Origin: a bacterium
GTDB lineage: Bacteria > Fidelibacterota > Marinisomatia > Marinisomatales > UBA1611
Length of the DNA: 10,828 bases
NCBI GenBank assembly: GCA_038127595.1
Contig: JAYPIC010000006.1
Location: forward strand, 38,951 to 49,778
Direction of reading: 5' to 3'
The position numbers were made by a program, and so were the translations under genes. This document shows positions 1 through 8,485 of this stretch, piece by piece (the first letter of the stretch is position 1; the number at the start of each line of letters is the position of its first letter). Below the pieces are notes generated by a model, which saw only the letters and a program-made list of their open reading frames with translations, was not told where the DNA came from and ran no database searches.

Positions 1-546
1 ATACCTGCCGGTTTGTCTCTTATTGTTGTTATTATGCTAGCAGGCACACTAAATATGCAGGATATTATTAAATATCAGGCAGGTGGAATTTTTAATTGGA
101 TTATTTTTGATAATCCATTCGTTCCAATAGCATTTGTTGTTTATTTTATTAGTGCTATCGCCGAAACGAATAGGACTCCTTTTGATTTACCCGAATCTGA
201 ATCTGAATTGGTTGCTGGCTTTGCGACTGAATATTCTGGAATGAGGTATGCTTTCTTTTTCTTAAGTGAGTACGCAAATATGTTTGTTGTCAGTGCTGTG
301 GCTGCTGCTGGTTTTTTAGGTGGATGGCATAGTCCGATTCAAGGGTTTATGGATTCTCCGGCATGGGGGGTTTTTTGGATGATCAATAAAACTGGTTTTC
401 TTATATTTGTCATGATTTGGCTTAGGTGGACACTTCCAAGATTAAGAGTTGATCAATTAATGAATGTATGTTGGAAAGTTTTTCTTCCATTAGCTCTGAT
501 CAATATTTTTGGTGTTGCGATATGGACAGTTGTATTTAATTCATAA
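1..546 (+). CDS. nuoH: NADH:quinone oxidoreductase subunit H (5'-truncated by window edge)
   Basis: Frame is open from base 1 (IPAGLSLIV..., the end of the conserved SYEIP region), so the ORF-track start at 13 is internal. It carries the NuoH/ND1 signature AETNRTPFDLPESESELVAGFATEYSG and WLRWTLPRLRVDQLM. Stop TAA at 544-546. Confidence 0.97.
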   Translation: MPAGLSLIVVIMLAGTLNMQDIIKYQAGGIFNWIIFDNPFVPIAFVVYFISAIAETNRTPFDLPESESELVAGFATEYSGMRYAFFFLSEYANMFVVSAVAAAGFLGGWHSPIQGFMDSPAWGVFWMINKTGFLIFVMIWLRWTLPRLRVDQLMNVCWKVFLPLALINIFGVAIWTVVFNS

Positions 547-555
547 GGTAGATAA

Positions 556-1140
556 ATGAAAAGATATTTTACAGATATATATGAAAGTGTTAGTTCAATA
601 TTAGGTGGTATGAGCATCACTTTAGTACATCTTTTTAAAGCTAGAAATGATAATGTTACTCTTCAATATCCTGAAGAAAAGTGGCCAAGGCCAGAAAGAA
701 ACATTGGATTTGACCATAACAGCTACAATGTTATTAGGTCAAGATTACATGTTGATATGGATGATTGTATTGGGTGTTTAAAATGTGAAAGAGCATGTCC
801 TGTAGACTGTATTAAAATTGAAACAGAGAAAGCACCTGCTCGTGGCGAAGATTTAAAAGAAATCAAACACAAGGGTGTAACTTCAAATGGTACTAGAAAG
901 GCTTTGGTTGTAACGAGGTTTGACATAGATATGTCTGAATGTTGTTACTGTAACTTATGTACCTACCCATGCCCTGAGGAATGTATTTTTATGACTGGCG
1001 GGCCCAATGCCAAGAAGCATCCAATAGATTATGAGTTCTCAGAGCCTGACAGAAGTGATCTAATATATAGGTTTGCAAAAAAAGGTGCGAAAGAGGGTCT
1101 AGCTGAACTTAATAACGCAAAGCAGGAAGCTGAAGCGTAG
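556..1140 (+). CDS. nuoI: NADH:quinone oxidoreductase subunit I, 2x[4Fe-4S] ferredoxin-type
   Basis: N-terminal TLQYPEEK motif, two CxxCxxCxxxCP motifs (CIGCLKCERACP and CCYCNLCTYPCP), RFDIDM..C and DYEFS motifs. Located between nuoH and nuoJ. Confidence 0.96.
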   Translation: MKRYFTDIYESVSSILGGMSITLVHLFKARNDNVTLQYPEEKWPRPERNIGFDHNSYNVIRSRLHVDMDDCIGCLKCERACPVDCIKIETEKAPARGEDLKEIKHKGVTSNGTRKALVVTRFDIDMSECCYCNLCTYPCPEECIFMTGGPNAKKHPIDYEFSEPDRSDLIYRFAKKGAKEGLAELNNAKQEAEA

Positions 1141-1144
1141 TTAA

Positions 1145-1633
1145 ATGGCCGATTTAGTTTTTTGGATCATTGCTGCTGTTACAATAATGTCAGCTGCTTT
1201 TGTAGTTTTAAATAATCAATTAATCTACTCAGCTGTGGCCTTGTTGTTCACCCTTTTTGGTGTTGCCGGGTTGTATGTTTTTTTATGGGCTGACTTTATA
1301 GCAGGGATTCAAATTTTAGTTTATGTTGGTGGAATTTTGGTCCTTGTGATATTTGGAATAATGTTAACAAATAAAATTAAATCAGTTCGTATTTCTCATA
1401 AAAGTATGCAGCAGGGTGTAGGTGGGGTAGTTACATTTTGGTTTTTTATATTTTTGTTTATTGCATTGACAAAGGCTCCGTGGGCTTTTAGTGATGCTGT
1501 CGAGCCAGTTGGTACTGTGAGAGAAATTGGAGTTCTTCTGCTAACCGATTTTTTACTTCCATTTGAAATTATTTCGTTGCTCTTATTAGGTGCTCTAATC
1601 GGTGCTGCGGTATTATCAAGGGGTGAATCTTGA
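1145..1633 (+). CDS. nuoJ: NADH:quinone oxidoreductase subunit J (compact, 162 aa)
   Basis: Hydrophobic protein with ADFIAGIQILVYVGGILVLVIFGIML and C-terminal LLPFEIISLLLLGALIGA, both typical of NuoJ/ND6. Synteny agrees. Confidence 0.95.
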   Translation: MADLVFWIIAAVTIMSAAFVVLNNQLIYSAVALLFTLFGVAGLYVFLWADFIAGIQILVYVGGILVLVIFGIMLTNKIKSVRISHKSMQQGVGGVVTFWFFIFLFIALTKAPWAFSDAVEPVGTVREIGVLLLTDFLLPFEIISLLLLGALIGAAVLSRGES

Positions 1634-1938
1634 TGGATAGCATTAATTCATATTTATTCATATCATCAATGCTATTTTGTTTGGGTTTATTTGGCGTTAT
1701 TACCAGAAGAAATGCGATTGCTGTTTTAATGGGTGTTGAGCTAATACTTAATGCTGCAAATATTAATTTTGTTGCTTTTTCCAAATTTAACGGGATGAAT
1801 ATTGACGGTCATATTTTTAGTTTAATGGTTATAGTATTAGCTGCAGCTGAAGCCGCTGTAGCTCTCGCAATTATCATAAATATATACAACAATATGAATA
1901 CAATTAATATCGATGATGCAGCGGAGTTAAAAAGATGA
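1633..1938 (+). CDS. nuoK: NADH:quinone oxidoreductase subunit K
   Basis: RRNAIAVLMGVELILNAANINFVAFS and AAAEAAVALAI contain the two conserved Glu. The ATG at 1633 overlaps the nuoJ stop (TGATG) and is preferred over the TTG at 1630. Confidence 0.96.
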   Translation: MDSINSYLFISSMLFCLGLFGVITRRNAIAVLMGVELILNAANINFVAFSKFNGMNIDGHIFSLMVIVLAAAEAAVALAIIINIYNNMNTINIDDAAELKR

Positions 1939-3992
1939 TTGAGAGTCCAATGATAACCTTTCCTCTGCTCATTCTATTTTTGCCTCTTATTTCTTTCATT
2001 ATACTGATATTTTTCGGTAAAAAATTACCCAGGCAAGGTGATTGGGTTGCAGTAGGTTCAATAGTGACAACATTTATTTTGGCTGTGTATATCTTCGTTC
2101 AAATGTTGACAAACTATGATGCTAATTTTAGTCATGGTGCCTCATTATCTTGGATCGATATGGGTGCATTTAAGATAGATTTAGGCATTTTAGTTGATAA
2201 TCTTACCATTGTGATGTTGTTAATTGTTACATTGGTATCAAGTTGTACACATATATTTTCTCTTGAGTACATGAAAGGTGATGTCAGGTACAACAGATAT
2301 TATGCATATTTAGGTTTATTTACATTCTCTATGAATGGTATCGTTTTAGCTGATAACCTAATTTCAATGTATATGTCATGGGAATTGGTGGGTGTAAGTT
2401 CATATTTACTTATTGGCCATTGGTTTGAAAAGGATAGTGCTGCAAATGCTAGTAAGAAGGCATTTTTAACGAATAGAGTTGGAGACATTGGATTTTTTAT
2501 CGGAATAATGTTGCTCTATTCAGCTGTTGGAGCCTTTACATTTGCTCCAATCTTTGATTCAATTTCTGGTGGAGAAGCTATTGCAGGCATGACTTTAACA
2601 CTTGCAGGCTTGGGTATTTTTATGGGAGCGGTAGGTAAATCATCTCAGTTTCCATTGCACATTTGGCTCCCTGATGCTATGGAAGGTCCCACACCTGTGT
2701 CAGCATTGATGCATGCTGCTACAATGGTTGCAGCCGGCGTATATATGTGTGTGCGTTTGTTCCCTATCTTTACTGCTGATGCTCTTACTGTCATTGCTTA
2801 CATTGGAGCTATTACTGCAATTTTAGCTGCATTGACAGCCATAACTCAAAATGATATTAAAAAAGTTTTGGCCTATTCAACAGTTAGTCAATTGGGTTTT
2901 ATGGTTTTAGCTGTGGGTACAGGTGTTTACACTGCTGCATTTTTTCATTTACTAACTCATGCAATGTTTAAAGCAAACTTGTTTTATTGTAGTGGTTCAG
3001 TAATTCATTCAATGCATCATGCTTTGCATGAAGCACATGATCACGATACTGACCCACAAGATATGAGAAACATGGGCGGCTTTAGAGAAAAAATGCCCAT
3101 CACATATTACTCAATGCTAATTAGTACTCTTGCTATCGCTGGTGTTCCTTTGTTCTCAGGGTTTTTATCTAAAGATGCTATACTCGCTGGTACTCTTGCA
3201 TTTGCTCAGCAAAACCCCGGACACTTTTTATTGCCTCTTTTAGGGTTTTCTGCAGCAGCAATTACGGCATTTTACATGTTCCGTCTGATTTTTATGACGT
3301 TTCATGGAAAACCAAATATGAAAAATATTTTTAAAGATATACATGAGTCGCCAAAAGAGATGACTGGGCCAATTGTTTTATTGGGGGCCTTAAGTTTTTT
3401 CATCTTTTACACATTACCAAGCAATTTTAATCCCATTAAGGACAAAGGTTGGTTTACAGATCTCATTGTTCCCAGAAACTCCTCTGTTCCAGGTAGTTTA
3501 ACGGCTAATGAGATCGCTGAATATGCTCATCATGCTCACTATTTAGCAATGGGCCTTTCACTATTTGTGGCTGCTGCTGGAATATTGCTGGCAGTACTTA
3601 TGTACCAGAGACAGTCTATTTCTGCAGAAAAATTAGCCACTAAATTCGGGTTTCTGTATCATTGGAGTTACAATAAGTTTTATTTTGATGAGAACTATAA
3701 CAGGTACTTATACCAGCCATTTCTTAGATTAGCTAATTCTATTTCTTGGTTAGATTGGGAATTCTATGATAAATATTTCATCAATGGTTTTGGAAAATTA
3801 ACAAAGTTATTTAGCAAAATTTCTGGCAAGTTTGACTATGATGGAATTGACCAGGGTTTAGTGGATGGTTTTGGTAGGGTTTCCGCGGTCAGTGGAAATT
3901 TTCTAAGAAACATACAGACTGGGCGATTACAAAATTACTTATTATTTGTCGTGGCCGGTATTTTAGTAATAATAATTGCTCAGGCATTTTAA
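1935..3992 (+). CDS. nuoL: NADH:quinone oxidoreductase subunit L (antiporter-like), with extended HL helix and His-rich inserts
   Basis: Motifs WELVGVSSYLLIG, KKAFLTNRVGD, GKSSQFPLHIWLPDAMEGPTPVSALMHAATMV, DIKKVLAYSTVSQLG, FHLLTHAMFKA, GFLSKD and C-terminal QTG..QNY. ATGA overlap with nuoK and GGAG at 1923-1926. Confidence 0.98.
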   Translation: MIESPMITFPLLILFLPLISFIILIFFGKKLPRQGDWVAVGSIVTTFILAVYIFVQMLTNYDANFSHGASLSWIDMGAFKIDLGILVDNLTIVMLLIVTLVSSCTHIFSLEYMKGDVRYNRYYAYLGLFTFSMNGIVLADNLISMYMSWELVGVSSYLLIGHWFEKDSAANASKKAFLTNRVGDIGFFIGIMLLYSAVGAFTFAPIFDSISGGEAIAGMTLTLAGLGIFMGAVGKSSQFPLHIWLPDAMEGPTPVSALMHAATMVAAGVYMCVRLFPIFTADALTVIAYIGAITAILAALTAITQNDIKKVLAYSTVSQLGFMVLAVGTGVYTAAFFHLLTHAMFKANLFYCSGSVIHSMHHALHEAHDHDTDPQDMRNMGGFREKMPITYYSMLISTLAIAGVPLFSGFLSKDAILAGTLAFAQQNPGHFLLPLLGFSAAAITAFYMFRLIFMTFHGKPNMKNIFKDIHESPKEMTGPIVLLGALSFFIFYTLPSNFNPIKDKGWFTDLIVPRNSSVPGSLTANEIAEYAHHAHYLAMGLSLFVAAAGILLAVLMYQRQSISAEKLATKFGFLYHWSYNKFYFDENYNRYLYQPFLRLANSISWLDWEFYDKYFINGFGKLTKLFSKISGKFDYDGIDQGLVDGFGRVSAVSGNFLRNIQTGRLQNYLLFVVAGILVIIIAQAF
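3750..3911 (+). repeat. Degenerate in-frame tandem repeat (2 x 81 bp, 27 aa) within the nuoL HL helix
   Basis: LDWEFYDKYFINGFGK (3750-3797) aligns without gaps to FDYDGIDQGLVDGFGR (3831-3878). The 10-mer ATGGTTTTGG occurs at 3784 and 3865, exactly 81 nt apart. Confidence 0.75.
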
Positions 3993-4017: not shown

Positions 4018-5562
4018 ATGGAGAATATTCTTAGTTTACTAATCTGGATTCCTATCTTGGGGGCAATCGTAGTCGCCTTTCTCCCGAGAGATAAGGATAA
4101 TTTAATCAGATATACATCAGCAGCTGTTACAGGATTACAGTTTGTTATTGCTATTGTACTTTGGAGAAAATTTGACCCTTTAAATGGATCTATGCAGTTT
4201 ATGGAAAGGTATGAATGGATACCTTCTTTGAACATATCTTATATCTTAGGTGTTGATGGCTTGAGTCTTCCGATGGTCCTTTTGACGGGGATGCTATTTT
4301 TTATTGGAGTTTTTGTTAGTTGGAATATTAAAAAAGCGGTTAAAGGCTATTTTTCTCTATACTTGTTATTAGATGCTGGTGTAGTTGGGGTTTTTCTTTC
4401 TTTAGACTTTTTCCTATTTTATATATTTTGGGAAGTAATGCTTTTGCCGATGTATTTCCTAATTGGAATGTGGGGCGGACCTCAAAGGGAATATGCAGCA
4501 ATAAAATTTTTCCTTTACACTCTTTTTGGATCTGTATTGATGTTGATAGGTATACTTGGTCTATACTTCACATGCGGAAAAACATTTGATATACTTTTGA
4601 TCATGGAAAGAGCGCCAGAGGCTCTCAATGGAGTTCTTTGGTGGGGAATGAGCGCAGCCAAGGTTATATGGGTGCTAGTCTTCATAGGCTTTGCTATCAA
4701 AGTTCCTGTATTTCCTTTCCATACATGGCTTCCATTAGCTCATGTTGAGGCGCCTACAGCTATTTCCGTATTGTTGGCTGGCATACTTTTAAAATTGGGA
4801 GTGTACGGTATTATTAGGGTTAATTATGGTATAATGCCCAATGAGGTGTATTGGTTTGCTGGGGGTCTTGCCTTTCTTGGGCTTGTAAATGTCATATGGG
4901 GTGGTTTGTGCGCTTTAGCTCAAACAGATCTGAAAAAATTAGTAGCATACTCCAGTATTAACCATATGGGTTATTCATTATTGGGAATGGCTGCTGTTGT
5001 CGCTGCTGGAGCGATGAATGGTGGTGACCTTAAAGCTGCTCAAGCTGGTTTAAGTGGGGCTGTTTTTCAAATGTTTAACCACGGTACAATATCTGCAATG
5101 CTTTTTATTTTAGTTGGAGTCGTTTATGAGAGAGCCCATCATCGTGATATAGATGGTTTTGGCGGCTTAGCTAGTCAAATGCCAGTTTATACAGGCATTA
5201 CTGCACTAGCATTTTTTGCAGGACTTGGACTACCTGGTTTTTCTGGTTTTGTTAGTGAAGCCATGTGTTTCATTGGAGCTTTTCCAGTTTTTAGAACTAT
5301 TGTCATCCTGAGCACTATTGGTATACTACTTAATGCCGCATACTTTTTGTGGGCATTTCAGAGGGTGTTTTTTGGAAAGCTTAATGAGAAATATAAAGAT
5401 ATGGAAGAAATCAATGGCCTGGAGCTATTCACCGTGATACCGCTAGCCGTTATTACTTTATTCTTTGGAATATACCCTGGTCCTTATCTTGATTTAATTA
5501 AAGCTACAATGGATCAAATTATTGAAAAGGTTGCGTTTGTTGCCACATACGCTGCACTCTAA
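4018..5562 (+). CDS. nuoM: NADH:quinone oxidoreductase subunit M (antiporter-like)
   Basis: Motifs LGVDGLS, FWEVMLLPMYFLIGMWG, YAAIKFFLYT, AIKVPVFPFHTWLPLAHVEAPT, LLKLGVYG, DLKKLVAYSSINHMG, YERAHHR and GLPGFSGFVSE. Confidence 0.98.
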   Translation: MENILSLLIWIPILGAIVVAFLPRDKDNLIRYTSAAVTGLQFVIAIVLWRKFDPLNGSMQFMERYEWIPSLNISYILGVDGLSLPMVLLTGMLFFIGVFVSWNIKKAVKGYFSLYLLLDAGVVGVFLSLDFFLFYIFWEVMLLPMYFLIGMWGGPQREYAAIKFFLYTLFGSVLMLIGILGLYFTCGKTFDILLIMERAPEALNGVLWWGMSAAKVIWVLVFIGFAIKVPVFPFHTWLPLAHVEAPTAISVLLAGILLKLGVYGIIRVNYGIMPNEVYWFAGGLAFLGLVNVIWGGLCALAQTDLKKLVAYSSINHMGYSLLGMAAVVAAGAMNGGDLKAAQAGLSGAVFQMFNHGTISAMLFILVGVVYERAHHRDIDGFGGLASQMPVYTGITALAFFAGLGLPGFSGFVSEAMCFIGAFPVFRTIVILSTIGILLNAAYFLWAFQRVFFGKLNEKYKDMEEINGLELFTVIPLAVITLFFGIYPGPYLDLIKATMDQIIEKVAFVATYAAL

Positions 5563-5573
5563 GGTTTAGCTAA

Positions 5574-7064
5574 ATGACAAATCTCCAAAGTTTAGAGTTT
5601 TTTATCCCAGAGTTAATTTTGACAATTACAATATTGGCTGCTCTAATTACTGATCTTTTTGTGAAAAAATCTAAGACGAATATGATCGGCTGGGTTCTTG
5701 GTGTTGGTTTAGTTGTTGTAGGGCTCTCTGTTCATAATTTGAGCTCTGTACCTCCAACGACATTATTTCTAGACATGATTGTAATAGATCCTTTCAGCTC
5801 GTTTATGAAAATTGTTATTATACTATCTACGCTGCTGGTAATCGTTGCCAGTTGGGTAAACGATGAGTTAGAAAAATATAGGAAAGGTGAATATTTCACT
5901 ATAATGGGTATAATGGTAATGGGTTTATTTTTAATGACATCATCTGTAGACATAATAATGTTATACATTTCTATTGAAGTTGTTTCAATTATGTCGTTCG
6001 TGCTTGCTGCCTATCTAAAATTAGATACTCGGTCAAACGAGGCTGGATTAAAGTATGTCATTTATGGAGCATTTAGTTCTGGGGTAATGTTGTTTGGCTT
6101 GAGCATCGTATATGGGTTAGCTGGTAGTACAAATTATTTTGCTATCCAAGATACTCTTTCTAGTCTTGATGGTTCTGCAAACCCAGCCCTAATAATGGCA
6201 TTATTAATGATATTTGCTGGATTTGGCTACAAAATTTCTTCTGTTCCTTTTCATTTTTGGACACCAGATGTATATGAAGGTTCACCCTCAACAATTACAG
6301 CATATTTATCTGTTGCCCCAAAGGCTGCGGGTTTTGCAATGATCATAAGGTTTTTTCATCAAGTCTTTTCAGACAGTATAGGATTAACTAGTAATGCTAT
6401 TGGATCCACAGATTTACCGTGGCCTGAAATTATTGGCGTTCTAGCTGTTGTGACAATGACTATGGGGAATTTAGTTGCCATCCAACAAAAAAGTATCAAA
6501 CGTATGCTTGCGTATTCTAGCATTGCCCATGCAGGTTATATGATGTTAGCACTTCCAGTTTTGTCCATGGAGGCAGTTGAGTCAGTTATGATCTATCTTT
6601 TTATTTATGTCTTTATGAATCTAGGTGCATTTTTCATTGTTATTTTTGTTAAGAACAAAACAGGTGGAGAATCTTTTGAAGACTTTGAGGGTCTGGGATG
6701 GAAAATGCCAATAGTAGGTGCATTTATGACTTTATTCATGTTGTCCTTAACAGGGTTGCCTCCTACTGCAGGCTTTGTAGGTAAATTGTATATCTTTAAA
6801 ACATTAGTTGGCGCTGGCAGTGAATTTTTGTGGTTAGTTGTAGCTGGAGGCGTAAACAGTGTTATTTCTCTATATTATTATTTTCATGTTGTGAAAGTGA
6901 TGTTTTTAGGCGGTAAAAGAAGCGATGTGATAACATATCCTCCCTCGACGATGTTTGGTCTTATGATTTTTACAGCAGTTCCTTCTTTATTACTTGGTTT
7001 ATATTGGAACCCTTTAGCTTCATGGGTTAAAGATTCGTTAGTGTTTTACACCCAAGTAATGTGA
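5574..7064 (+). CDS. nuoN: NADH:quinone oxidoreductase subunit N (antiporter-like)
   Basis: Motifs SNEAGLKY, GYKISSVPFHFWTPDVYEGSP, SVAPKAAGF, IKRMLAYSSIAHAGY, SLTGLPPTAGFVGK and NSVISLYYY. Confidence 0.98.
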   Translation: MTNLQSLEFFIPELILTITILAALITDLFVKKSKTNMIGWVLGVGLVVVGLSVHNLSSVPPTTLFLDMIVIDPFSSFMKIVIILSTLLVIVASWVNDELEKYRKGEYFTIMGIMVMGLFLMTSSVDIIMLYISIEVVSIMSFVLAAYLKLDTRSNEAGLKYVIYGAFSSGVMLFGLSIVYGLAGSTNYFAIQDTLSSLDGSANPALIMALLMIFAGFGYKISSVPFHFWTPDVYEGSPSTITAYLSVAPKAAGFAMIIRFFHQVFSDSIGLTSNAIGSTDLPWPEIIGVLAVVTMTMGNLVAIQQKSIKRMLAYSSIAHAGYMMLALPVLSMEAVESVMIYLFIYVFMNLGAFFIVIFVKNKTGGESFEDFEGLGWKMPIVGAFMTLFMLSLTGLPPTAGFVGKLYIFKTLVGAGSEFLWLVVAGGVNSVISLYYYFHVVKVMFLGGKRSDVITYPPSTMFGLMIFTAVPSLLLGLYWNPLASWVKDSLVFYTQVM

Positions 7065-7141
7065 AAAGTTTTTATTTCTGAATCTTTTGTATTGTAATTT
7101 TAAACCCTAATATTTAATAAAAAATAAAGCTTAGCGGTTAA
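7065..7141 (+). promoter_or_regulatory. 77-bp very AT-rich nuoN-nqrA spacer, possible weak internal promoter, no intrinsic terminator
   Basis: Contains -35-like TTGTAT/TTGTAA (7087-7097) and -10-like TAATAT (7108-7113), but the spacing is suboptimal and such matches are expected by chance at this AT content. No GC-rich hairpin followed by a U-tract is visible. Confidence 0.25.
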
Positions 7142-8485
7142 ATGCCTCATATAAAAATCACAAAAGGACATGATTTAAAGATCTCTGGGATTCCAGATAA
7201 GAATATCGCTTATCCTGCGCAGTATTCAACTGTGGCCATCATGCCAAATGATTTCAGGGGAGTAAAGCCTAAACTTTTAGTAAAAGAGGGAGACAAAGTA
7301 GATATTGGTTCTCCATTATTTTTCAATAAAATAAATCCTGAAGTTAAATGGGCTTCGCCTGGTTGCGGAAAAGTTAAAGATATTGTTTATGGCCCTAGAA
7401 GAGTAATTGAAAAAATTGAAATTGAATTGGATAAAGATCAAAATAGTATCGATTATAAAACCTATACTAGAGAAGAGATATCTAACTTATCTGGAGAGCA
7501 AGTTCTAGAAAATATTTTAAATGCTAATCTCTTTACATTTTTTAGACAGAGACCATTTAATATAATACCCAACCATAAAATACCGCCGAGAGATATTTTC
7601 ATATCTGGTATAAACACCTCTCCTCTATCTGTAGATATCGAGGTTGTCATGGCGAGTCAGCTAGAAGACTTTCAATATGGAATTGATGCCATATCAAAAT
7701 TAACAAAGGGTAATGTTTTTCTAACAACTAAAAGAAATTCAATTTTATCATCTATTGAAAATGTAAAATTAAACACTATTTCAGGTCCACATCCAGCTGG
7801 TAATGTTGGTATTCAAATTCATCATATTGCGCATCTTAAGCCTGGTGAAATTGTCTGGACAATTAATCCTCAAGATGTGGTATCCTTAGGCAGATTATTT
7901 AAAAATGGGAGATATCACCCTGAAAGAATTATTTCAGTAGGAGGGCCTAGCGTCAAAACACCATCGTACTCGAAAGTAACAGCTGGTGTTCCTATAAAGG
8001 CTTTAATAAATGACAATTTAACATCTGAAAATGTTAGAATCATTTCTGGTGATGTGCTAACAGGCAGAAGTGCATCCTCACAAGATTATCTCAGTTTTTA
8101 TGATTATTCTTTGAGCGTTATATCTAACGACATCAAAAGAGAATTTATTGGAATGTTAAATCCGGGAAGTAGTTCATCCAGGTATAGTTTAACACCTGTT
8201 TTTGTTTCTCTTGCTGACAAGTTATTTAACTTTACTAGTTCTCAAAATGGAAGTCACAGAGCTGTAGTCCCAATTAATACGTGGGAAAATGTATTACCAA
8301 TGGATATTTTGCCAAATGAGCTCTACAGATCTATTATGGCAAAAGACATTGAAGAAATGGAAAATCTTGGTATTATTGAATGCGATGATGAAGATTTTGC
8401 ATTGTGTTCTTTTGCATGTCCTAGTAAAACCGATGTTAGCGGTGTAATTAGGCAAGGGTTGAACTTGCTTCAGGCAGAGGTTTAA
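7142..8485 (+). CDS. nqrA: Na+-translocating NADH:quinone reductase subunit A
   Basis: 447 aa soluble protein with IKITKGHDLKISG, KPKLLVKEGDKV, RQRPF, GPHPAGNVG, RIISGDVLTG, VLPMDILP and EDFALCSFACPSK. It lacks the intact CxxCxxCxxxCP pairs of RnfC. Confidence 0.96.
   Translation: MPHIKITKGHDLKISGIPDKNIAYPAQYSTVAIMPNDFRGVKPKLLVKEGDKVDIGSPLFFNKINPEVKWASPGCGKVKDIVYGPRRVIEKIEIELDKDQNSIDYKTYTREEISNLSGEQVLENILNANLFTFFRQRPFNIIPNHKIPPRDIFISGINTSPLSVDIEVVMASQLEDFQYGIDAISKLTKGNVFLTTKRNSILSSIENVKLNTISGPHPAGNVGIQIHHIAHLKPGEIVWTINPQDVVSLGRLFKNGRYHPERIISVGGPSVKTPSYSKVTAGVPIKALINDNLTSENVRIISGDVLTGRSASSQDYLSFYDYSLSVISNDIKREFIGMLNPGSSSSRYSLTPVFVSLADKLFNFTSSQNGSHRAVVPINTWENVLPMDILPNELYRSIMAKDIEEMENLGIIECDDEDFALCSFACPSKTDVSGVIRQGLNLLQAEV

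What the first reader, a model, noticed from the sequence alone, without database searches (positions are those of the whole stretch)
3684..3923. NuoL transverse helix lengthened by a 27-aa tandem duplication (2M-type signature) although the operon has only one nuoM
Seen: the segment from the conserved F-D-x-x-Y (3684) to QTG (3923) spans 80 aa and contains two gapless copies of [LF]DxxxxDxxxx[ND]GFG[KR] with a 27-aa period, also visible in DNA as ATGGTTTTGG repeated 81 nt apart. Only one nuoM lies between nuoL and nuoN. Established: the equivalent span is about 50 aa in E. coli NuoL and Thermus Nqo12 (recalled sequences). This amphipathic helix straps across NuoM to NuoN, and in described '2M' complex I homologs an insertion of roughly this size accompanies a second nuoM gene and is proposed to allow an extra proton-pumping module. 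27 helical residues is about 40 A, roughly one antiporter subunit. Inference: this complex may hold four antiporter-like subunits without a second nuoM in the usual position, either by incorporating the same NuoM twice or by recruiting a NuoM/MrpD-like protein encoded elsewhere. Alternatively the extension is a relic of a lost nuoM copy. A 'cryptic 2M' complex would be missed by gene-counting surveys.
Basis: partly seen in the sequence, partly recalled or inferred. Interest (0 to 1): 0.85.

Follow-up and report, generated by a model that had tools for sequence, protein, structure and literature searches.

The report
Complex I strap fits extra pump
The side helix that straps together the proton pumps of this marine bacterium's respiratory complex I is one 27-residue module longer than usual although the genome assembly holds only one nuoM gene, so the enzyme likely builds in the same NuoM pump twice and would then move an extra proton.

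Summary
NuoL helix HL spans 80 residues against 51-54 in solved canonical structures, through a 27-residue tandem duplication. The 95.8%-complete Marinimicrobia genome has just three antiporter-like genes (L, M, N) and no nuoEFG. The trait is old and widespread: in a sample biased to long helices, 73 of 78 one-module-long clusters have a single nuoM (Marinimicrobia, Ignavibacteria, Chlorobi, Acidobacteria and others). Yu et al. 2022 noted such inserts in one-nuoM clusters, and this scan found the trait before on other DNA. Added here: helix lengths fall in steps (49-54, 78-83, 104-112, 131-134), and two- and three-module-long Anaerolineae also have one nuoM (17 of 18). Both modules keep their aspartates across sequences about 30% identical. 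AlphaFold predicts an unbroken helix. Long clusters lack nuoF/G (69 of 71), as most 2M clusters do. Best reading (0.55): HL is a ruler and the one NuoM is used twice. Against: no structure or stoichiometry, one helix with about six extra degenerate modules, a weak nuoM start site in this window, and few independent lineages. It is not a 2M complex by gene content.

The parts
1..546 (+). nuoH, 3' part (5' part and nuoA, B, C, D lie upstream on the contig, across a 100-N scaffold gap)
   Evidence: names of A-D, H from sequence motifs I recognise (recalled) and gene order
556..1140 (+). nuoI, 4Fe-4S dicluster subunit
1145..1633 (+). nuoJ
   Evidence: name from order and recalled motifs
1630..1938 (+). 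nuoK
   Evidence: name from order and recalled motifs
1935..3992 (+). nuoL, 685 aa, antiporter-like subunit carrying the long helix HL
   Evidence: Pfam PF00361, PF00662; PDB matches
3684..3923 (+). Helix HL, F584-G663, 80 residues, predicted as one unbroken helix of about 115-120 A
3750..3830 (+). HL module 1, L606-K632, with D607, D612, G618
3831..3911 (+). HL module 2, F633-N659, with D634, D639, G645
3915..3989 (+). QTG motif and last transmembrane helix of NuoL (Q661, G663, Q666, Y668 invariant in 67 relatives)
4018..5562 (+). nuoM, 514 aa, the only copy in the assembly
5574..7064 (+). nuoN, 496 aa
7142..10826 (+). nqrA and three following genes read as nqrB, C, D (Na+-NQR), directly behind nuoN
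   Evidence: NqrA by Pfam; B-D by order and recalled motifs

Best explanation
This is an 11-subunit complex I (nuoABCDHIJKLMN, no nuoEFG found) whose NuoL helix HL is one 27-residue module longer than canonical, and HL likely acts as a length ruler so that the single NuoM is likely built in twice (L-M-M-N), which would add one proton channel. Shown: the insertion, its period, the single nuoM, the conservation of both modules, the absence of nuoEFG hits. Predicted: an unbroken helix about 40 A longer. Inferred: each module docks on one NuoM (the E. coli residue D563 contacting NuoM is recalled, not checked); the last helix stays on NuoN; five protons per two electrons instead of four; ferredoxin or flavodoxin as the electron partner, whose larger redox gap to quinone could pay for the fifth proton (midpoint potentials recalled).
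For: (1) HL length tracks pump number in solved relatives (review PMC8165549, passage read). In two MrpA proteins the stretch from the end of TM15 to QxG is 45-47 residues, about 80 in a short NuoL and 107 here (hand counts). (2) Among 135 distinct NuoL tails, spans are 49-54 (34), 78-83 (83), 104-112 (12) and 131-134 (6), none at 55-77 or 84-103; five clusters with two nuoM sit at 78-82. (3) D607, D612, D634 and D639 are at least 90% conserved in 123 sequences mostly 25-45% identical; 30 of 30 close relatives show no indel. (4) AlphaFold2 on that alignment gives one helix over residues 581-661, pLDDT about 89-98, no turn. (5) NuoN of long clusters keeps its own Tyr where NuoM has His (42 of 42 each), and only three scattered columns became M-like. 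(6) nuoF/G is absent upstream in 69 of 71 scorable long single-M clusters and 5 of 6 two-M clusters, but present in 20 of 24 short ones; G000 has no NuoE/F/G hit and one 2-oxoacid:ferredoxin oxidoreductase over the Pfam cut-off. (7) The first NuoM of Anaerolineales 2M clusters groups with single NuoM of long Anaerolineae clusters (98/98), the second with single NuoM of short Bacteroidota clusters (100/100). (8) Crude start-site score of nuoM exceeds nuoL in 52 of 69 one-module and 12 of 13 longer clusters against 12 of 27 short ones; it exceeds nuoN in 47 of 70, 13 of 17, 5 of 16, and 0 of 5 in two-M clusters.
Against: No structure, mass or stoichiometry exists in what I could search. One Anaerolineae NuoL (L226) has a helix of roughly 215 residues with degenerate repeats and one nuoM, more modules than a pump could plausibly use. 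Once a repeat exists, recombination alone gives stepwise lengths. In 120 homologues of a long Anaerolineae NuoL, spans of 71, 85, 101, 110-123 and 145-159 also occur, many with a loop insert. L227 has two extra modules but two nuoM genes, so gene count and module count do not match simply. The start-site trend is not significant within genomes (9 of 12, p 0.15; 8 of 12, p 0.39), reverses against nuoN in Chlorobi and Acidobacteria, and this window's nuoM site is weak (-3.1 against -6.1 for nuoL). The window's clade joins the first-NuoM group with weak support (86/68). Residues shared by long-cluster NuoM and first-NuoM rest on 2-4 independent pairs. AlphaFold tends to draw isolated amphipathic stretches as straight helices (pTM 0.42). 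A self-binding NuoM needs one face to accept both NuoM and NuoN, which is untested.
Confidence: 0.55

Rival explanations
1. Three pumps only; the extra module loops out or lies on the membrane surface and is tolerated or serves as a brace. It may be inherited from a two-nuoM ancestor that lost one copy.
For: Very long degenerate helices with one nuoM exist (L226). Loop inserts occur inside HL of some Anaerolineae. L227 nests among single-M clusters yet keeps a second NuoM related to the 2M second copy, which fits repeated loss of that gene. Yu et al. 2022 offer 'evolutionary transition' as one reading.
Against: Length stays at 79-81 in all 20 distant Marinimicrobia operons read, and no shortened copy was seen in the 150 best matches or in 9 of 10 weak matches checked (1 cut by a contig end). 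Both modules keep the same aspartates. No turn is predicted.
Confidence: 0.24
2. Register shift: three pumps, module 1 on NuoM, module 2 on NuoN, and the last helix of NuoL docks about 40 A further on, near NuoJ/K/A/H.
For: Explains conservation of both modules and an unbroken helix without a new M-M contact; NuoM and NuoN are homologous.
Against: The QTG..Q.Y motif ahead of the last helix is unchanged from short NuoL. NuoN has not become M-like. It cannot hold for two or three extra modules (17 single-M clusters), which would overshoot the membrane arm (arm dimensions recalled).
Confidence: 0.12
3. A different membrane protein, encoded elsewhere, fills the fourth slot.
For: A PF16980 transporter gene sits between nuoM and nuoN in some relatives' second clusters and has a 68% homologue on contig C58 of G000.
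Against: G000, G186, G204, G094 and G312 have only three PF00361 genes. The PF16980 gene lies in clusters with a short helix. No extra gene is shared by the long operons read.
Confidence: 0.06

Closest known systems
2M complex I (Chadwick, Hemp, Fischer, Orphan 2018, ISME J 12:2668; not held; known through passages of PMC9040806 and PMC6606698)
   Same: NuoL helix longer by one module of about 26 residues; spans 78-82 in five two-nuoM clusters against 80 here; usually no nuoEF; proposed link to ferredoxin.
   Different: No second nuoM in the operon or the assembly. In Anaerolineales 2M clusters the two NuoM are about 36% identical and not one clade; here any second copy would be identical.
Complex_I_1 and Complex_I_2 of Ca. 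Manganitrophaceae (Yu et al. 2022, PMC9040806; passages read; Fig. S2 not seen)
   Same: HL insertion in clusters of canonical gene content with one nuoM.
   Different: Those genomes also encode a cluster with two NuoM, so borrowing is possible there; G000 and several relatives have no other NuoM. The paper describes one family, not a multi-phylum trait or longer helices.
Non-canonical NDH (nNDH) of Marinimicrobia (Getz et al. 2018, PMC6143742; passages read)
   Same: Likely the same operon type: a nuo cluster lacking the NADH module, widespread and vertically inherited in the phylum, alongside NQR.
   Different: The passages read do not mention helix length or pump number; they describe it as lacking nuoD-F, whereas nuoD is present here.
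Canonical complex I NuoL/Nqo12/NdhF1 and Mrp antiporter MrpA (PDB 4he8, 6hum, 8qby, 3rko; PMC7419157 and PMC8165549 passages)
   Same: Same fold and same anchors at both ends of HL.
   Different: HL one module shorter in canonical NuoL and shorter again in MrpA; no long-helix chain appeared among the PDB matches inspected.

Membership tests
2M complex I | Second nuoM gene in the cluster | tested here: not met
   One nuoM between nuoL and nuoN; three PF00361 genes in the 95.8%-complete assembly
2M complex I | About 26-residue insertion in NuoL helix HL | tested here: met
   80 residues against 51-54; period 27
2M complex I | Four antiporter-like subunits in the assembled enzyme | not testable with these tools
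2M complex I | Five protons per two electrons | not testable with these tools
   Proposed, not measured, in the passages read
11-subunit complex I | nuoABCDHIJKLMN present | tested here: met
   Contig C6 35930-46014; L, M, N, I by Pfam, the rest by order and recalled motifs
11-subunit complex I | No nuoE, F, G | tested here: met
   No PF01512 match; no tblastn hit with a relative's E, F, G; assembly 95.8% complete
Canonical three-pump complex I | HL of about 50-54 residues spanning NuoM and NuoN | tested here: not met
   80 residues
Mrp antiporter or hybrid with MrpD | mrpA/mrpD-type genes in the genome | tested here: not met
   No PF00361 gene beyond L, M, N

The most novel reading that the evidence does not exclude
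Helix HL is a molecular ruler that sets how many identical NuoM subunits are chained between NuoL and NuoN. A large multi-phylum class of ferredoxin-linked complex I (Marinimicrobia, Chlorobi, Ignavibacteria, Acidobacteria) would hold two NuoM from one gene, and some Anaerolineae three or four, so proton stoichiometry is geared by repeat number and is invisible to gene counting. 2M operons would be the special case in which one slot took a specialised, separately derived NuoM.
Probability: 0.45. Interest if true: 0.88.

Novelty: new variant of a known kind. Interest (0 to 1): 0.62.

Why it matters
Complex I is taught as one copy each of three pumps and four protons per two electrons. If one nuoM gene can fill two or more slots set by a helix ruler, energy budgets for abundant ocean Marinimicrobia and for green sulfur bacteria are miscounted, the origin of 2M complexes gets a stepwise path, and the modular coupling question becomes testable in cultured organisms: the long, single-nuoM form is in Prosthecochloris vibrioformis DSM 260 (L126) and in a genome labelled Melioribacter roseus (L120). 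If false, a module conserved across phyla that binds nothing still needs explaining.

Tried and rejected
Chadwick 2018 and Zhu and Vik 2015 are not held; Chadwick may already discuss single-nuoM inserts. Searches for a prior description: two copies, extra or fourth NuoM; 8 papers, 7 listed, none by title or abstract start on single-gene doubling; 0 papers; 1 unrelated; 0 papers; the library lacks most subscription papers. The held supplements of PMC9040806 gave nothing on NuoL, and Fig. S2 was not seen. Viral contigs held no relative. Public RNA runs were contigs only, so depth cannot rank nuoL, M and N. Covariation within HL showed no antiparallel pattern but was too shallow to count (Neff 95). 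The nuoL-nuoM spacer is longer in the long cluster in 10 of 11 genomes with both kinds, but two-M clusters also have spacers (0 of 6 at 5 nt or less), so I set it aside. A simple local duplication of nuoM as the origin of Anaerolineales 2M was rejected (AU p 4e-66). The MrpA anchor inside HL is ambiguous: 26 residues on a hand-picked tyrosine, while MAFFT aligns it otherwise.

Full report
What the window is. The window holds the 3' part of nuoH, then nuoI, J, K, L, M, N and nqrA with three following nqr genes. Upstream on the contig lie nuoA, B, C, D. A homologue carries the name Ca. Neomarinimicrobiota, and the closest named loci are Marinimicrobia. The assembly is 95.8% complete in 133 contigs. 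No nuoE, F or G was found, so this is an 11-subunit complex I.

The observation. Bases 3684-3923 give 80 residues, F584-G663. The self-match at period 27 was reached by 6 of 1000 shuffles, and the family signal peaks sharply at 27. Solved canonical chains give 51, 52 and 54 for the same span (hand counts), and second, 14-subunit clusters in the same order give 53. Independent contigs cross the region without gaps. The modules are L606-K632 and F633-N659.

No second NuoM. tblastn with L, M and N finds only those three genes in the assembly. With PF00361, 29 of 41 genomes (the own genome and 40 relatives) have exactly three matches; the rest have none, fragments or additional clusters. G186, a single contig of 2.14 Mb, has three. 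So borrowing an M-like subunit is excluded as far as these assemblies go.

How widespread. Of 30 loci, 25 have span 80 (one is the window itself), one 81, two 53 (second clusters), one is truncated and one is not NuoL. All 20 operons read across the phylum have one nuoM and a long helix. A scan of 5 of 64 parts of the GTDB collection with a long-helix query returned 80 loci; long helices with one nuoM occur in Ignavibacteria, Melioribacteraceae, Kapabacteria, Chlorobi, Zixibacteria, Latescibacterota, Planctomycetes, Acidobacteria and Chloroflexota. The sample is biased towards long helices, so the proportions below are not frequencies in nature. From 146 loci a script scored 137 clusters, 135 distinct; loci where the motifs could not be placed were dropped. 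Spans were 49-54 (34), 78-83 (83), 104-112 (12) and 131-134 (6). Where M and N both lay on the locus, one nuoM was found in 27 of 27 short, 73 of 78 one-module, 11 of 12 two-module and 6 of 6 three-module clusters. Three of five long-helix Anaerolineae genomes checked whole (G349, G421, G520) have one L/M/N set plus one distant weak hit; the other two carry a further cluster, with two M-sized genes in G448. Some other genomes with a long single-M cluster also hold Mrp or further nuo clusters.

What is in print. Yu et al. 2022 (passages read) report the insertion in NuoL of two one-nuoM clusters and say these complexes either can already take extra pumps or are in transition. A review states that HL length matches the number of pumps in MBH, MBS, Mrp and complex I. 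Chadwick 2018 could not be read. Five earlier notes of this scan describe the same trait in other genomes, and one describes four repeats in an archaeal subunit; several of them read it as not indicating a fourth pump. I confirm their point that the trait is common, but commonness does not decide the subunit count.

Evidence on mechanism. First, both modules are under selection: D607, D612, D634 and D639 are at least 90% conserved in 123 sequences mostly 25-45% identical; in 30 close relatives module 1 and 2 average 72% and 56% amino-acid identity, with third codon positions at 50-57% and no indel. Second, AlphaFold2 gives one helix: residues 584-660 at pLDDT 55-73 for the whole protein, and 581-661 at about 89-98 with the deeper alignment; 27 residues is 40 A. 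Third, the far anchor is unchanged: the QTG..Q.Y motif is invariant, and NuoN keeps Tyr where NuoM has His in 42 of 42 long clusters. Fourth, long helices go with loss of the NADH module: no nuoF/G upstream in 61 of 63 one-module, 8 of 8 longer and 5 of 6 two-M clusters, against presence in 20 of 24 short ones; 34 loci were too short to score. Kin are not independent, and four short Bacteroidota clusters also lack F/G. Fifth, the NuoM tree (49 of 133 sequences) puts the first NuoM of Anaerolineales 2M clusters with single NuoM of long Anaerolineae clusters (98/98), and the second with single NuoM of short Bacteroidota clusters (100/100); the window's clade joins the first group only weakly (86/68). 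Sixth, a crude start-site score favours nuoM over nuoL and nuoN more as the helix lengthens, and nuoN starts with GTG or TTG in 16 of 17 of the longest clusters against 1 of 5 two-M clusters. This would fit extra NuoM synthesis, but within-genome tests are not significant, two lineages reverse, and the window's own nuoM site is weak.

Against. L226 carries about six extra, degenerate modules with one nuoM, which suggests HL can outgrow any real pump number. Repeat recombination yields stepped lengths by itself, and a wider protein set shows intermediate spans: of 120 homologues, 83 scored above 100 with values from 101 to 159, 16 scored 71-85 and 21 could not be scored. Residue signatures shared by long-cluster NuoM and first NuoM (Y111 in 87 of 92 long single, 6 of 6 first, 0 of 6 second, 6 of 29 short) rest on 2-4 independent pairs. 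The direct test, a model of two NuoM together, could not be run.

Verdict. The feature is real, old and common. It is not a member of the 2M family, because the defining second gene is absent; it may work like one. I put the doubled-NuoM reading at 0.55, a tolerated or bracing extension at 0.24, a register shift at 0.12 and a foreign subunit at 0.06. Interest 0.62: the mismatch was noted before, but the stepped ladder up to three extra modules with one gene, in genomes with no other NuoM, makes a sharp question that one cryo-EM map from a cultured relative would settle.

Noticed in passing
L210-L228 (Anaerolineae genomes G387, G347, G647, G349, G448 and others); proteins P0235, P0268, P0279-P0380: NuoL helices with two or three extra modules (spans 104-112, 131-134; up to 159 in proteins), nearly all with one nuoM; nuoN mostly starts with TTG or GTG.
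   Followed up: yes
L226:7001-9445 (G674): NuoL with a helix of roughly 215 residues made of degenerate repeats, followed by one nuoM; nuoN not on the contig.
   Followed up: partly
L227 (G434:C33): Two extra modules and two different nuoM genes; the first nests among single-M clusters, the second with the 2M second copies.
   Followed up: partly
L033:10917-12416, L034:8230-9708, L037:8330-9730, L039:17758-19182; G000 C58:4209-5549: A PF16980 (CitMHS_2) transporter gene lies between nuoM and nuoN in 14-subunit clusters of three relatives and after the nqr genes in another; G000 has a 68% homologue.
   Followed up: partly
L035, L036, L039, L094: The 11-subunit cluster lacks nuoB between nuoA and nuoC in one Marinimicrobia lineage; whether nuoB lies elsewhere was not checked.
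   Followed up: no
L071-L074, L077-L078, L082, L084-L089: NuoI is extended to 288-488 residues in sister orders, against 194 here; the added domain was not identified.
   Followed up: no
L037:3233-8343 (G029): A 14-subunit cluster in which two MrpD-like genes replace nuoL, as in the 'green' complex I described in PMC9040806.
   Followed up: no
window 7064-7142 and L032, L035, L036: nuoN is followed directly by nqrA here, but by a second complete nuo cluster in several relatives.
   Followed up: no
contig C6 38851-38950, just before window base 1: A 100-N scaffold gap cuts nuoH; the 358-residue NuoH of a same-genus genome shows the gene is likely intact.
   Followed up: partly
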